Source: a virus
Taxonomy: Duplodnaviria; Heunggongvirae; Uroviricota; Caudoviricetes
DNA length: 36,924 bases
Strand: one strand, 5' to 3'
IMG/VR virus record: IMGVR_UViG_2645727715_000002
Translations under genes and position numbers: made by a program
Shown: positions 5,496-7,969 of the stretch, in pieces
How the letters are laid out: the number at the start of each line of letters is the position of its first letter
Position numbering within the stretch: the stretch's first letter is position 1
The notes under the pieces: model-generated
What the model was told of the DNA's origin: nothing
Database searches by the model: none
What the model saw: the letters and a program-made list of their open reading frames with translations, nothing else

Positions 5496-5605
5496 CTGGA
5501 TTCTCCTGTCAGTTAGCTTTGAGTAACGCGCCGTGATGCTTATCTCCACGGTTGCTGTCTTGCAGCTGCATTTCGCGCTACTCAAAGCTTTCTGCTTTGA
5601 ATGCT

Positions 5606-5636
5606 GCCCTTCTTCAGGGCTAAATTTTTAAGAGCC
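5606..5636 (-). promoter_or_regulatory. nutL (boxB hairpin plus boxA-like element)
   Basis: 5606-5620 gcccttcttcagggc is the reverse complement of the boxB consensus GCCCTGAAGAAGGGC; adjacent 5629-5636 is a boxA-like reverse complement (GGCTCTTA versus CGCTCTTA). Confidence 0.7.
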
Positions 5637-5676
5637 TCACCTTCAATGGTGGTTAGTGCGTCCTGCTGATGCGCTT

Positions 5677-5742
5677 AGTATCACCGCCAGTGGTATCTGT
5701 GTCAACACCGCCAGAGATAATTTACTCACCGCAGATGGTTAT
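5677..5742 (-). promoter_or_regulatory. pL promoter with OL1-OL2-OL3 operators
   Basis: OL1 tatcaccgccagtggta at 5679-5695 and OL2 at 5703-5719 match the lambda operators; -10 (rc GATACT) at 5677-5682 and -35 (rc TTGACA) at 5700-5705; OL3-like site at about 5726-5742. Confidence 0.75.
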
Positions 5743-5890
5743 CTGTATGTTTTTTTTATATAGTATTTATTTTTTGCAGGGTTGTGTGGATTGGGAAGGT
5801 GATCGAGAGATCTGAATTGCGATGTTTAGCGAGTTGTATCTATTAATTTTAAAATAAATACAATTGGTTATGTGTTTTTGGGGGCGTTAG

Positions 5891-5918
5891 GCAAAGAAAA
5901 CCCGGCGCAGATGCCGGG
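5891..5918 (-). terminator. Rho-independent terminator ending the cI / 301-aa gene leftward operon
   Basis: Stem cccggc (5901-5906) / gccggg (5913-5918) with a 6-nt loop; on the minus strand it is followed by TTTTCTTT (rc of 5891-5900), 13 nt past the gene stop. Confidence 0.6.
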
Positions 5919-5930
5919 TTGTGGTGGAGA

Positions 5931-6836
5931 TCAATGCTTATTTGGGAGTGCTGGTTTTTTTATCGACTCTAATAGCTCGGAGGCATTACTAATCTTTTTG
6001 TTCCCAAGGTAATTTGGCAGTTTTTCCATTGCGTAATTATCGTGTAGCCATTTTCTGAACACGCCAAGTGCCTCAATAGGATAAATCCAAGCTGTTATAT
6101 GCTTATTTGCAGCTGACTGCCTGTAATTTTCGGGGAATAGATGTGGGTACTGCACCCTTTCCCCGAATTTCTCAGATAGCCCATTAGCTGTCCAATACTT
6201 TCCCCAGTGAATTCCAACACTTCCATCCAAAGATGTGGTGTCATCCATTGGGAATCCTCCTCCGATCAGGTTCATGGCAATGTCAGCTATCTCTCTGAAT
6301 ACTGCAAAATGAGTTGTCGGTATCTGATCGTTTAGCTTAATCCTTGCTCTATAGTTCTCGAATGAGATATCTATTGAAGCATTTGGGTTGTAATTTGACT
6401 TTTCATAAATCATTCGCTTAAGCGTGTACTCAGCCAAGCGAACAAAATTACCTATTGCGACTGACCTATCAAAATTGGTGGCATCTAGAGCGTAGTAACG
6501 GAGGATAGCCATACAAACATAGTCAGGATAAGCATGTGTTTCAACGTTTGAGCTATTTATGACGCGGGTATACAGTCGGTCAACGTTGTTAAATCCTTTC
6601 TCAGCTAAGTATGCAGCTACTTTTTGTCCTCTTGGCTTATTTTTTTCAGTCTCCCAGTTAGATGTAAACATTCGAAGAGGTGCTTCATCTATGCCACATA
6701 ATTTGGCTAAACCGTAAAGAGTTAGATAAGGGGTTCCATCATTAAGCACCCCCATAGGAATGCCATCAGCAACAACTTCTACTGTAGGTACTAAGGGTAA
6801 TTCACCCTGCGATCCGCCCATCGGTAAATTTAGCAT
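5931..6836 (-). CDS. Unknown 301-aa protein in the rexAB position downstream of cI; candidate anti-phage defence or exclusion gene, possibly BstA-like (unverified)
   Basis: Uninterrupted 301-codon ORF with ATG at 6834-6836 and AAGGA upstream; AT-rich relative to the flanking lambda genes; same strand as cI and followed by a terminator; no similarity to RexA/RexB that I can recognise. Confidence 0.8.
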   Translation of the reverse strand: MLNLPMGGSQGELPLVPTVEVVADGIPMGVLNDGTPYLTLYGLAKLCGIDEAPLRMFTSNWETEKNKPRGQKVAAYLAEKGFNNVDRLYTRVINSSNVETHAYPDYVCMAILRYYALDATNFDRSVAIGNFVRLAEYTLKRMIYEKSNYNPNASIDISFENYRARIKLNDQIPTTHFAVFREIADIAMNLIGGGFPMDDTTSLDGSVGIHWGKYWTANGLSEKFGERVQYPHLFPENYRQSAANKHITAWIYPIEALGVFRKWLHDNYAMEKLPNYLGNKKISNASELLESIKKPALPNKH

Positions 6837-6911
6837 ATGTTATTGATTTCCTTATGTTATGCGCTGAGATCGACTATTCGCCTATATGGCGATTTCTATT
6901 TCTAATAAACA

Positions 6912-6925
6912 ATCGCATATGCGAT
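6912..6925. repeat. Perfect 14-bp palindrome atcgcatatgcgat in the cI / unknown-gene intergenic region
   Basis: Sequence equals its own reverse complement; lies 76 nt upstream of the unknown gene start and 30 nt downstream of the cI stop. Confidence 0.6.
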
Positions 6926-6954
6926 CTTTTTGCGACAACAAGGTTGTATTGTGG

Positions 6955-7671
<717 letters not shown>

Positions 7672-7678
7672 TTAAATC

Positions 7679-7744
7679 TATCACCGCAAGGGATAAATAT
7701 CTAACACCGTGCGTGTTGACTACTTTACCTCTAGCGGTGATAAT
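7679..7744. promoter_or_regulatory. OR3-OR2-OR1 operators with divergent pRM and pR promoters
   Basis: OR3 tatcaccgcaagggata 7679-7695 and OR2 taacaccgtgcgtgttg 7702-7718 match lambda; OR1 7726-7742 reads tacctctagcggtgata (one base differs from lambda TACCTCTGGCGGTGATA); pR -35 TTGACT 7716-7721 and -10 GATAAT 7739-7744. Confidence 0.85.
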
Positions 7745-7759
7745 AGTTGCATGTACTAA

Positions 7760-7969
<210 letters not shown>

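What the first reader, a model, noticed from the sequence alone, without database searches (positions are those of the whole stretch)
6837..6954. Perfect 14-bp palindrome and a second short inverted repeat in the cI / unknown-gene spacer
The 118-bp spacer between the cI stop and the unknown gene contains atcgcatatgcgat (6912-6925), which is a perfect palindrome, and an imperfect inverted repeat cgcc-tatat-ggcg (6883-6895). Lambda has no comparable spacer because rexA follows cI closely. This could be an operator for a dimeric regulator, an attenuator or partial terminator setting expression of the downstream gene relative to cI, or a cis element of the putative defence module (BstA loci are reported to carry a cis-acting self-immunity DNA element).
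Basis: seen in the sequence. Interest (0 to 1): 0.4.

Follow-up and report, generated by a model that had tools for sequence, protein, structure and literature searches.

The report
Palindromes in a cI–bstA spacer
The 14-bp palindrome is real, but it lies in a non-conserved stretch between the lambda-type repressor gene and a BstA phage-defence gene; the part of this spacer that is conserved across BstA loci is a pair of direct repeats 57 bp apart around the bstA start codon, which matches the known "aba" self-immunity element.

Summary
The palindrome ATCGCATATGCGAT is at 6912-6925 as reported. The second inverted repeat is TCGCC-N5-GGCGA at 6878-6892, about 4 bp from the stated coordinates.

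The "unknown gene" is a BstA abortive-infection gene sitting where lambda has rexAB.

Comparison of about 120 BstA loci splits the spacer in two:
- **bstA-proximal part:** the 35 bp next to bstA plus the first 30 bp of the gene (6807-6871) carry direct repeats GATCTCAG/GATCGCAG 57 bp apart. This is the geometry of the experimentally defined BTP1 aba element, and 55 of 90 non-redundant loci show it.
- **Distal part:** the 83 bp holding both palindromes occurs only in one near-clonal E. coli lineage. Relatives with the same aba type and N-terminus have unrelated sequence there. It corresponds to the part of the BTP1 spacer shown to be dispensable.

A 14-bp palindrome is not exceptional window-wide (3 seen, 2.4 expected). 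The hairpins are weak (-6 to -8 kcal/mol), and the spacer has no promoter-like site and no Rfam match.

The palindromes are most likely incidental, or at most weak hairpins in the cI-bstA mRNA. A minority reading remains open: the left arm GATCGCA equals the downstream aba repeat, so they could be extra BstA sites. Overall this is an ordinary new member of a known kind.

The parts
6955..7668 (-). cI repressor gene, 237 aa, lambda immunity type
   Evidence: 98% identical to lambda CI; HTH_3 and Peptidase_S24 domains
6837..6954 (-). 118-bp cI-bstA intercistronic spacer
   Evidence: ORF coordinates. The analogous lambda cI-rexA spacer is 112 bp. In BTP1 the 88-bp cI-bstA spacer is read through from the cI promoter (PMC7067206).
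6872..6954 (-). Distal, lineage-specific part of the spacer, holding all three inverted repeats
   Evidence: 100% identical in 33 of 5426 E. coli genomes, always in this context. Identity to the other loci of the same N-terminus type is at random level from -120 to -41. No Rfam match. RNA fold z = -1.25 for 6800-6960, which spans the whole spacer.
6935..6947 (.). Small inverted repeat ACAAC-AAG-GTTGT, 7 nt after the cI stop codon
   Evidence: chance-level arm length
6912..6925 (.). Perfect 14-bp palindrome ATCGCATATGCGAT (the finding)
   Evidence: RNA hairpin -5.8 to -7 kcal/mol, z = -1.4. Terminator-like by consensus on both strands. The minus-strand left arm GATCGCA equals the R2 7-mer.
6878..6892 (.). 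Second inverted repeat TCGCC-TATAT-GGCGA (corrected coordinates)
   Evidence: Hairpin -7.6 kcal/mol on the - strand (z = -2.4) and -8.2 on the + strand (z = -4.2). Appears as an insertion relative to other spacers in the alignment.
6864..6871 (-). R1, upstream direct repeat GATCTCAG of the predicted aba-like element (-35 from the ATG)
   Evidence: GATCGCGG in the EHEC variant. Homology to other GSQG-type loci starts here.
6844..6853 (-). AAGGAAATCA, Shine-Dalgarno region conserved at DNA level across distant BstA loci
   Evidence: Present in the window, CL707, BTP1 (AAGGAAAATCA) and Klebsiella and Serratia loci. It is itself the 57-bp repeat unit in many alphaproteobacterial loci.
6807..6814 (-). 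R2, downstream direct repeat GATCGCAG inside bstA codons 8-10 (+22 from the ATG), 57 bp from R1
   Evidence: Spacing of 56 or 57 bp in 55 of 90 non-redundant loci. It encodes part of an N-terminal tail with pLDDT below 50.
6794..6808 (.). Inverted repeat AGGGTGAATTACCCT inside bstA, directly after R2
   Evidence: Different inverted repeats sit at the same place in the CL707, Klebsiella and Serratia loci. About 2-fold enriched in the family.
5931..6836 (-). bstA, 301 aa, abortive-infection defence gene; a natural chimera
   Evidence: From -150 to +330 it is identical to the EHEC type; from +300 to the stop it is identical to the CL707/BstA-Ec type.
5899..5920 (-). Timm-like intrinsic terminator ending the cI-bstA operon
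   Evidence: 8-bp stem, -15 kcal/mol, followed by a U-tract. The homologous site is annotated Timm in CL707.

Best explanation
The interval is the intercistronic spacer of a cI-bstA operon. The prophage has lambda immunity, and the BstA abortive-infection gene occupies the place of rexAB. The spacer has two parts.

(1) The 35 bp next to bstA (6837-6871) plus the first 30 bp of the gene (down to 6807) correspond to the BTP1 'aba' self-immunity DNA. Two direct repeats, GATCTCAG and GATCGCAG, lie 57 bp apart around a conserved AAGGAAATCA-N7-ATG. By analogy with BTP1, this DNA on the replicating prophage neutralises its own BstA so that induction is not aborted.

(2) The distal 83 bp (6872-6954), which hold the 14-bp palindrome and the second inverted repeat, are lineage-specific DNA lying between the conserved cI 3' end and the conserved aba block. 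This stretch is transcribed from PRM (and PRE) as part of the cI-bstA mRNA. There the repeats can form only weak hairpins. They most likely have no conserved role; at most they slightly attenuate read-through or buffer the end of the cI message.

Shown here: gene identities, the conservation boundary at -40, the family-wide 56/57-bp repeat architecture, and the weakness and lineage restriction of the palindromes.

Inferred: aba function in this phage, co-transcription, and any hairpin effect.
For: Identity of the locus:
- BstA by PADLOC and PHROG, and 43% identity to BTP1 BstA.
- cI is 98% identical to lambda CI.
- A Timm-like terminator follows bstA.

The known aba element: in BTP1 it spans -29 to +34, needs its terminal CCCGCC direct repeats, and acts as DNA. 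Truncating the upstream region from 88 to 49 and then to 29 bp kept immunity (PMC8585504).

Family-wide repeat architecture:
- Exact repeats of 6 bp or more straddling the start pile up at spacings of 56 bp (18) and 57 bp (29), summed over 77 loci and carried by 45 of them. Shifted controls give 1-2 per spacing.
- With 8-mers and up to 1 mismatch, 55 of 90 loci have the repeat, against about 2 at any other spacing.
- The repeat word differs between lineages: CCCGCCA, CCGCCAG, GATCGCCA, TGGTCA, GATCCC, ATCCCT, GATCGC and others.
- The window has GATCTCAG and GATCGCAG at -35 and +22.

Conservation boundary:
- Identity of the window to L115, L101, L116, L119 and L120 (same R2, same N-terminus type) is about 25% from -120 to -41 and mostly 50-100% per 10-bp block from -40 onwards.
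- None of those loci has the palindromes.
- The distal 85 bp is invariant and confined to one lineage: 33 genomes, 5 IMG/VR contigs and 2 metagenome contigs.

No sign that palindromes matter here:
- No family-wide enrichment of palindromes upstream of bstA: arm of 6 or more in 17.8% of loci against 15.3% of controls.
- Hairpins of -5.8 to -7.6 kcal/mol, against -15 for Timm.
- No promoter-like site in the spacer.
- BTP1 cI-bstA is a single-TSS operon (PMC7067206).
Against: - A perfect 14-bp palindrome in a 118-bp spacer has P of about 0.013.
- The two inverted repeats share ATCGC...GCGA arms and ATAT(A) centres and lie 33 bp apart, which is more alike than two chance repeats should be.
- The palindrome's left arm GATCGCA is the same 7-mer as R2 and lies 55 bp upstream of R1. 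In the EHEC variant GATCGC occurs at -90, -35 and +22.
- This is the densest ATCGC/GCGAT cluster in the 36.9-kb window.
- Both hairpins are followed by T-rich runs on the + strand, and the palindrome also on the - strand.
- Distal spacers can be functional. Another BstA lineage carries a conserved element of about 67 nt there, with a covarying hairpin.
- All known copies of the window-type distal spacer are identical, so there is no direct test of constraint.
Confidence: 0.55

Rival explanations
1. The palindrome (and perhaps the second inverted repeat) is an auxiliary BstA recognition site. It would be two inverted copies of the same (G/A)ATCGCA half-site that forms the aba repeats in this lineage. 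These copies would add binding sites in cis and so strengthen or extend self-immunity, or autoregulate bstA.
For: - GATCGCA occurs on the gene strand at the palindrome's left arm and at R2 (6920 and 6808 in + strand coordinates); AATCGC occurs in the right arm and in the second repeat.
- In the EHEC variant GATCGC sits at -90, -35 and +22.
- The spacer and the N-terminal third of BstA (the part with a DNA-binding-like fold) travel together as one mosaic unit from -150 to +330, even behind an unrelated repressor.
- BstA acts on DNA and aba works as DNA, with a copy-number effect (PMC8585504).
Against: - The spacing from the -90 copy to R1 is 55 bp. The family rule is tightly 56 or 57: the counts are 2 at 55, 18 at 56, 29 at 57 and 0 at 58.
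- Third copies of the repeat word are not a family feature.
- Relatives with the same R2 and N-terminus type have no such sites.
- Given the palindrome, two more ATCGC copies within 200 bp is not significant (expected 0.55, P about 0.1, computed). For RATCGC the P is about 0.025, chosen post hoc.
- In CL707-type and other lineages the spacer palindromes do not resemble their own repeats.
- The distal spacer shows no alignment to the aba unit beyond that 7-mer; its Smith-Waterman score is below the shuffles.
- The BTP1 distal spacer is dispensable.
Confidence: 0.17
2. The palindrome, with or without the second repeat, is a genuine but leaky intrinsic terminator or an mRNA-stabilising hairpin. 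On the - strand it would set BstA expression below that of cI. On the + strand it would stop antisense transcription from running into cI.
For: - Consensus scan hits: on the - strand GATCGCATATGCGATT followed by GTTTATTAGA; on the + strand ATCGCATATGCGAT followed by CTTTTTGCGA, and TCGCCTATATGGCGA followed by TTTCTATTTC.
- An A-run precedes the palindrome and a T-rich run follows it, as in bidirectional terminators.
- The + strand hairpin of the second repeat has z = -4.2.
Against: - The stems are only 5-6 bp, -5.4 to -8.2 kcal/mol, against -15 for the operon's real terminator.
- The - strand U-tract is interrupted.
- The scan finds 6 terminator-like sites against 2.2 expected in this 2.3-kb region, so such hits are cheap.
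- No + strand promoter-like site lies within about 800 bp to the left; the only one found in bstA is at 6014-6043.
- In BTP1, reads cross the spacer and both genes are highly expressed from one start site.
- The feature is not conserved in relatives.
Confidence: 0.15
3. The palindrome is an operator for a dimeric regulator other than BstA (CI, Cro, CII or a host factor) that controls a separate bstA promoter in the spacer.
For: Perfect dyad symmetry of 14 bp in an intergenic region.
Against: - No sigma-70-like promoter on either strand of the spacer.
- No resemblance to the 17-bp OL/OR operators visible at about 5700-5760 and 7680-7745.
- The same spacer sits behind an unrelated repressor (24% identity) in EHEC strains.
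- The sequence is unique in the window. Its other occurrences in IMG/VR are in unrelated contexts.
- The two inverted repeats have different half-site spacing (4 versus 7 bp), which does not fit one rigid dimer.
Confidence: 0.04

Closest known systems
BstA-aba abortive-infection and self-immunity system of Salmonella prophage BTP1 (Owen et al. 2021, PMC8585504)
   Same: - The gene lies directly downstream of the prophage repressor on the same strand, and the protein is 43% identical over its full length.
- A short spacer is followed by direct repeats that bracket the start codon: BTP1 has CCCGCCA at -28 and +28, 56 bp apart; the window has GATCTCAG and GATCGCAG at -35 and +22, 57 bp apart.
- The same AAGGAAA(A)TCA motif sits before the ATG.
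   Different: - The repeat word is different, as expected for cognate specificity.
- The spacer is 118 bp rather than 88 bp and carries three small inverted repeats that BTP1 lacks.
- aba function has not been tested for this locus.
BstA-Ec locus of E. coli NCTC10963 / phage CL707 type (EF120459; Owen et al. 2021; CL707 is a wild phage of lambda immunity type)
   Same: - Same lambda-type cI, and the same gene body: identical to the window from +300 to the stop, with the same Timm-like terminator.
- The primer NW_761 used to clone bstA-Ec starts at the first base of this type of spacer.
   Different: - The spacer (86 bp) and the first 300 bp or so of the gene are a different allele. The repeats are ATCCCT(A/G)CA and the palindrome is CATCTAGATG.
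- That palindrome is itself not kept in L096.
- The window is therefore predicted to have a different aba specificity from BstA-Ec.
Lambda cI-rexA-rexB immunity-region operon
   Same: - cI is 98% identical.
- An accessory exclusion gene follows a spacer of about 115 bp and ends at Timm.
- The last part of the spacer shares CTCAGnnCATAACATA with lambda's rexA leader, and lambda also has a small inverted repeat (GGGGA-N8-TCCCC) just before it.
   Different: rexAB is replaced by bstA, and the rest of the spacer is unrelated to lambda's.
Rho-independent terminators and intercistronic stabiliser hairpins
   Same: A short GC-containing hairpin flanked by an A-run and a T-rich run.
   Different: The stem energy is about half that of the operon's own terminator or less, the U-tract is interrupted, and the feature is not conserved.

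Membership tests
BstA phage-defence protein family | Full-length sequence homology to BstA | tested here: met
   PADLOC PDLC02356 E=3.6e-106 over residues 8-286. PHROG 6287 E=4.9e-135. 43% identity to BTP1 BstA over 298 aa. Homologues carry PF26567 BstA_C. The local Pfam and NCBIfam copies gave no hit.
BstA phage-defence protein family | N-terminal KilA-N-like (APSES-related) DNA-binding domain | tested here: inconclusive
BstA phage-defence protein family | Encoded directly downstream of the prophage repressor, co-oriented | tested here: met
   cI 6955-7668 (-) and bstA 5931-6836 (-). The same layout is seen in L001-L004, L086, L087 and L117.
BstA phage-defence protein family | Confers abortive-infection defence by blocking phage DNA replication | not testable with these tools
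   Needs plaque and replication assays.
aba (anti-BstA) self-immunity DNA element | Short DNA overlapping the bstA start codon (BTP1: -29 to +34) | tested here: met
   The predicted element at 6807-6871 spans -35 to +30. Homology among relatives starts at -40.
aba (anti-BstA) self-immunity DNA element | Terminal direct repeats about 56 bp apart that are needed for function | tested here: met
   GATCTCAG and GATCGCAG lie 57 bp apart. This architecture is present in 55 of 90 loci. The requirement for function was not tested.
aba (anti-BstA) self-immunity DNA element | The 14-bp palindrome or the second inverted repeat belongs to the element | tested here: not met
   Both lie at -89 to -42, outside the conserved block, and are absent from relatives with the same R2. 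The equivalent BTP1 region is dispensable.
aba (anti-BstA) self-immunity DNA element | Suppresses the cognate BstA as DNA on a replicating element | not testable with these tools
   Needs phage and plasmid complementation as in PMC8585504.
Intrinsic (Rho-independent) terminator | Stable GC-rich stem followed by a U-tract | tested here: inconclusive
   It passes a loose consensus scan on both strands. The stems are only -5.4 to -8.2 kcal/mol against -15 for Timm, and z is only -1.1 to -1.4 for the palindrome hairpin (-2.4 and -4.2 for the second repeat).
Operator of a dimeric transcription regulator | Dyad-symmetric site overlapping or next to a promoter, recurring or conserved | tested here: not met
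   The dyad symmetry is present, but the spacer has no promoter-like site, the sequence is unique in the window, it is not conserved in related loci, and it is found only in unrelated contexts elsewhere.

The most novel reading that the evidence does not exclude
The palindrome and the neighbouring inverted repeat could be extra, inverted copies of the lineage's aba repeat half-site (G/A)ATCGCA. That would make this spacer an extended aba with additional BstA-binding sites that boost self-immunity in cis or autoregulate bstA.

Together with the family-wide 56/57-bp repeat rule, and the clustering of micro-variation inside the repeat-bounded core, this would give a readable 'grammar' for cognate BstA-aba specificity.
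Probability: 0.15. Interest if true: 0.55.

Novelty: new member of a known kind. Interest (0 to 1): 0.3.

Why it matters
The palindrome itself matters little: it is a lineage-specific feature with no comparative support.

The locus is more useful. It is a natural chimera of two BstA alleles behind a lambda-type cI. The comparison made here suggests that the aba self-immunity element, mapped experimentally only in BTP1, can be predicted in most BstA loci as two direct repeats 56-57 bp apart around the start codon.

I found no description of this generalisation in the held literature. If it holds, it gives direct targets for testing how BstA recognises its own phage and how specificity diversifies.

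Tried and rejected
- **Promoter in the spacer:** none on either strand.
- **Known RNA family:** no credible Rfam hit in 5600-7800; all hits were E > 3.
- **Stable RNA structure of the spacer:** z = -1.25.
- **Palindromes as a family-wide feature upstream of bstA:** no enrichment over shifted controls.
- **The palindrome's left arm as a canonical third aba repeat:** the spacing is 55 bp, not 56 or 57, and third copies are not seen in other loci.
- **The distal spacer as a decayed duplicate of the aba unit:** the Smith-Waterman score is below the shuffles.
- **Homology of the window spacer to the conserved 'ACACAG-hairpin-CAGGGAAA' element of other BstA lineages:** the covariance model finds 10 loci but nothing in the window at E <= 1.
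- **Recurrence of the palindrome as a shared operator:** GATCGCATATGCGATT occurs in 35 IMG/VR stretches. Only 5 are this lineage; the rest are unrelated, some of them probably coding.
- **Search for diverged copies to test constraint:** all copies were identical in the distal spacer, so there is no power. The copies are 33 E. coli genomes, 2 metagenome contigs found with flank anchors and a free 85-110 nt gap, and the IMG/VR copies.
- **Follow-up literature on the aba mechanism:** none in the held library.

Full report
**What is there.** The window is a lambdoid prophage. On the minus strand, cI (6955-7668) is followed by a 118-bp spacer (6837-6954), then a 301-aa gene (5931-6836), then a strong hairpin with a U-tract at 5899-5920.
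- CI is 98% identical to lambda CI.
- The 301-aa protein is BstA: PADLOC E=3.6e-106, PHROG 6287 E=4.9e-135, and 43% identity over the full length to BstA of Salmonella phage BTP1.
- The AF2 model is confident apart from residues 1-12 and a few at the C-terminus. Its distant fold matches are to DNA-binding domains, including the APSES domain of Mbp1, and they are weak.
- This is therefore a prophage of lambda immunity type in which bstA occupies the rexAB position, as in wild phage CL707.

**The observation.**
- ATCGCATATGCGAT is a perfect palindrome at 6912-6925, as stated.
- The second inverted repeat is TCGCC-TATAT-GGCGA at 6878-6892, about 4 bp from the coordinates given. A third small repeat lies at 6935-6947.
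- The statement that lambda lacks a comparable spacer is wrong: the lambda cI-rexA gap is 112 bp.
- The window holds 3 perfect 14-bp palindromes against 2.4 expected. For the spacer alone, P is 0.013 to 0.05.
- Inverted repeats with 5-bp arms are at chance frequency.

**What is known about BstA cis elements.** Owen et al. (PMC8585504) mapped the BTP1 self-immunity element aba to 63 bp, from -29 to +34 around the bstA start codon.
- It has terminal CCCGCC direct repeats that are each required.
- It acts as DNA.
- Upstream truncations from 88 to 49 to 29 bp kept immunity.
- Each BstA has a cognate aba.

BTP1 cI-bstA is an operon with one start site, and reads run across the spacer (PMC7067206).

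**Comparative analysis.** I collected about 120 BstA loci from genomes, phages and viral contigs.

*Repeats around the start codon.*
- Exact direct repeats of 6 bp or more that straddle the start region pile up at spacings of 56 bp (18) and 57 bp (29), summed over 77 non-redundant loci and carried by 45 of them. Shifted controls give 1-2 per spacing.
- With 8-mers and one mismatch allowed, 55 of 90 loci have the repeat, against about 2 at any other spacing.
- The repeated word differs from lineage to lineage. This is what cognate specificity predicts.
- The window has GATCTCAG at -35 (6864-6871) and GATCGCAG at +22 (6807-6814), 57 bp apart. They flank AAGGAAATCA, a motif kept at DNA level even in homologues only 40% identical in protein.
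- The downstream repeat lies in codons for the low-confidence N-terminal tail.

*Where conservation starts.* The palindromes lie upstream of this block, at -89 to -76 and -56 to -42.
- Relatives with the same downstream repeat and N-terminus type (L115, L101, L116, L119, L120) match the window at mostly 50-100% per 10-bp block from -40 onwards.
- From -120 to -41 they match only at random level, and they have no such palindromes.

*Where the distal spacer occurs.*
- The distal 85 bp is found in 33 of 5426 E. coli genomes, always in this context and always 100% identical. This includes EHEC strains where it follows an unrelated repressor plus a remnant of the lambda-type cI 3' end.
- Viral and metagenome copies are also identical there.
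- There is therefore no variation with which to test constraint. The element is also absent wherever the sequence has had time to diverge.

*Palindromes across the family.* Palindromes upstream of bstA are no more frequent than in control DNA.

**Function of the palindromes.**
- The spacer has no promoter-like site and no Rfam match, and a fold of 6800-6960, which spans it, is unremarkable.
- The hairpins are weak: -5.8 to -7 kcal/mol for the palindrome and -7.6 for the second repeat, against -15 for the Timm-like terminator. They do pass a loose terminator scan on both strands.
- I therefore think they are most likely incidental. At most they act as weak hairpins in the cI-bstA mRNA.

**What keeps a functional reading alive.**
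- The two repeats resemble each other (ATCGC...GCGA arms, ATAT centres).
- The palindrome's left arm GATCGCA equals the downstream aba repeat and lies 55 bp upstream of R1. The locus is the densest ATCGC cluster in the window.

Against this:
- 55 bp is off the tight 56/57 rule.
- Third copies are not seen in other loci.
- The excess of half-sites is marginal once the palindrome itself is discounted.
- The distal spacer is not a decayed copy of the aba unit.

Distal spacers are not always inert, however. Ten loci of another BstA lineage share an element of about 67 nt with a covarying hairpin directly upstream of R1. The window has no match to it.

**Mosaic structure.**
- From -150 to +330 the window is identical to the EHEC allele.
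- From +300 to the stop it is identical to the CL707 allele. That allele is the BstA-Ec type used by Owen et al..
- The spacer, the aba and the N-terminal third of the protein therefore move as one unit.
- Among 7 copies of this unit, 6 of 7 variable sites fall between -31 and +25.
- Three of those sites make the window identical to lambda's rexA leader. A conversion patch is therefore as likely an explanation as diversifying selection.

**Verdict.** This is a new member of the known BstA-aba kind. The by-product, a general repeat rule for aba, is the more interesting result, and I did not find it described in the held literature.

Noticed in passing
Window 6807-6871; loci L001-L120: Direct repeats 56-57 bp apart bracketing the bstA start codon occur in 55 of 90 non-redundant BstA loci, from gamma- to alphaproteobacteria. 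The repeat word is lineage-specific. In many alphaproteobacterial loci the repeated unit is AAGGAAATC(ACC). This generalises the BTP1 aba architecture; I found no description of it in the held papers.
   Followed up: yes
L102:1410-1475, L103:1410-1475, L110:1409-1475, L017:2400-2468, L009:2406-2475, L116:1106-1175, L015:2402-2468, L113:969-1036, L018:2374-2445, L056:2318-2384: A conserved non-coding element of about 67 nt, 'ACACAG - small hairpin with loop C(R)NAGAC - TTCAGGGGAAA', lies directly upstream of the first aba-type repeat in ten BstA loci of Yersinia, Erwinia, Izhakiella, Serratia and unassigned viral contigs (L102, L103, L110, L113). In 4 of the 5 stem pairs both sides change together. 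Four of these loci also have a GCGGCAT(A/T)TGCCG palindrome just after the repressor stop codon. The element is absent from the window.
   Followed up: partly
Window 5931-6836: bstA is a natural chimera. From -150 to +330 it is identical to the allele of O111-type EHEC strains; from +300 to the stop it is identical to the CL707/NCTC10963 (BstA-Ec) allele. The crossover lies near the end of the N-terminal domain.
   Followed up: yes
Window 6811-6867: Among 7 near-identical copies of the -145 to +330 unit, 6 of 7 variable sites lie between -31 and +25, inside the predicted aba core. The rest of the spacer and the next 300 bp of the gene are invariant.
   Followed up: partly
Window 6852-6868 and lambda L005:1730-1750: The stretch CTCAGCGCATAACATA just after R1 matches lambda's rexA leader CTCAGAACATAACATA (15 of 17 by my count, which extends the match one base to each side). 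The three sites where the window differs from the EHEC allele are exactly the sites where it agrees with lambda, which suggests a small conversion patch. Lambda has its own inverted repeat GGGGA-N8-TCCCC just before the motif.
   Followed up: no
Window 6794-6808: The inverted repeat AGGGTGAATTACCCT lies inside bstA directly after R2. Other lineages have different inverted repeats at the same place (CTGCATCAAATGCAG in CL707, CTGGTCACCAG in a Klebsiella phage, TCGCCAGGGCGA in Serratia). Inverted repeats at +10 to +60 are about 2-fold enriched over coding controls.
   Followed up: partly
Window 6811-6814, 6868-6871, 6923-6926: R1, R2 and the flank of the palindrome each contain a Dam site (GATC). 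Most Enterobacterales BstA loci have GATC or GATT in the core of both repeats, whereas the BTP1 aba has none.
   Followed up: no
Window 6826-6848 versus 6907-6929: The palindrome region is 74% complementary over 23 nt to the bstA translation-initiation region. Both contain CATATG, so in RNA the palindrome could pair with the start codon instead of with itself. This was not tested further.
   Followed up: no
L002:3461-3629: In O111-type EHEC prophages the same spacer and bstA 5' unit follow an unrelated 235-aa repressor. A remnant of roughly 30 bp of the lambda-type cI 3' end (CCAGTGGCCTGAAGAGACGTTTGGGTAA) is kept between them. This conserved cI tail looks like the recombination joint used to move the module.
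   Followed up: partly
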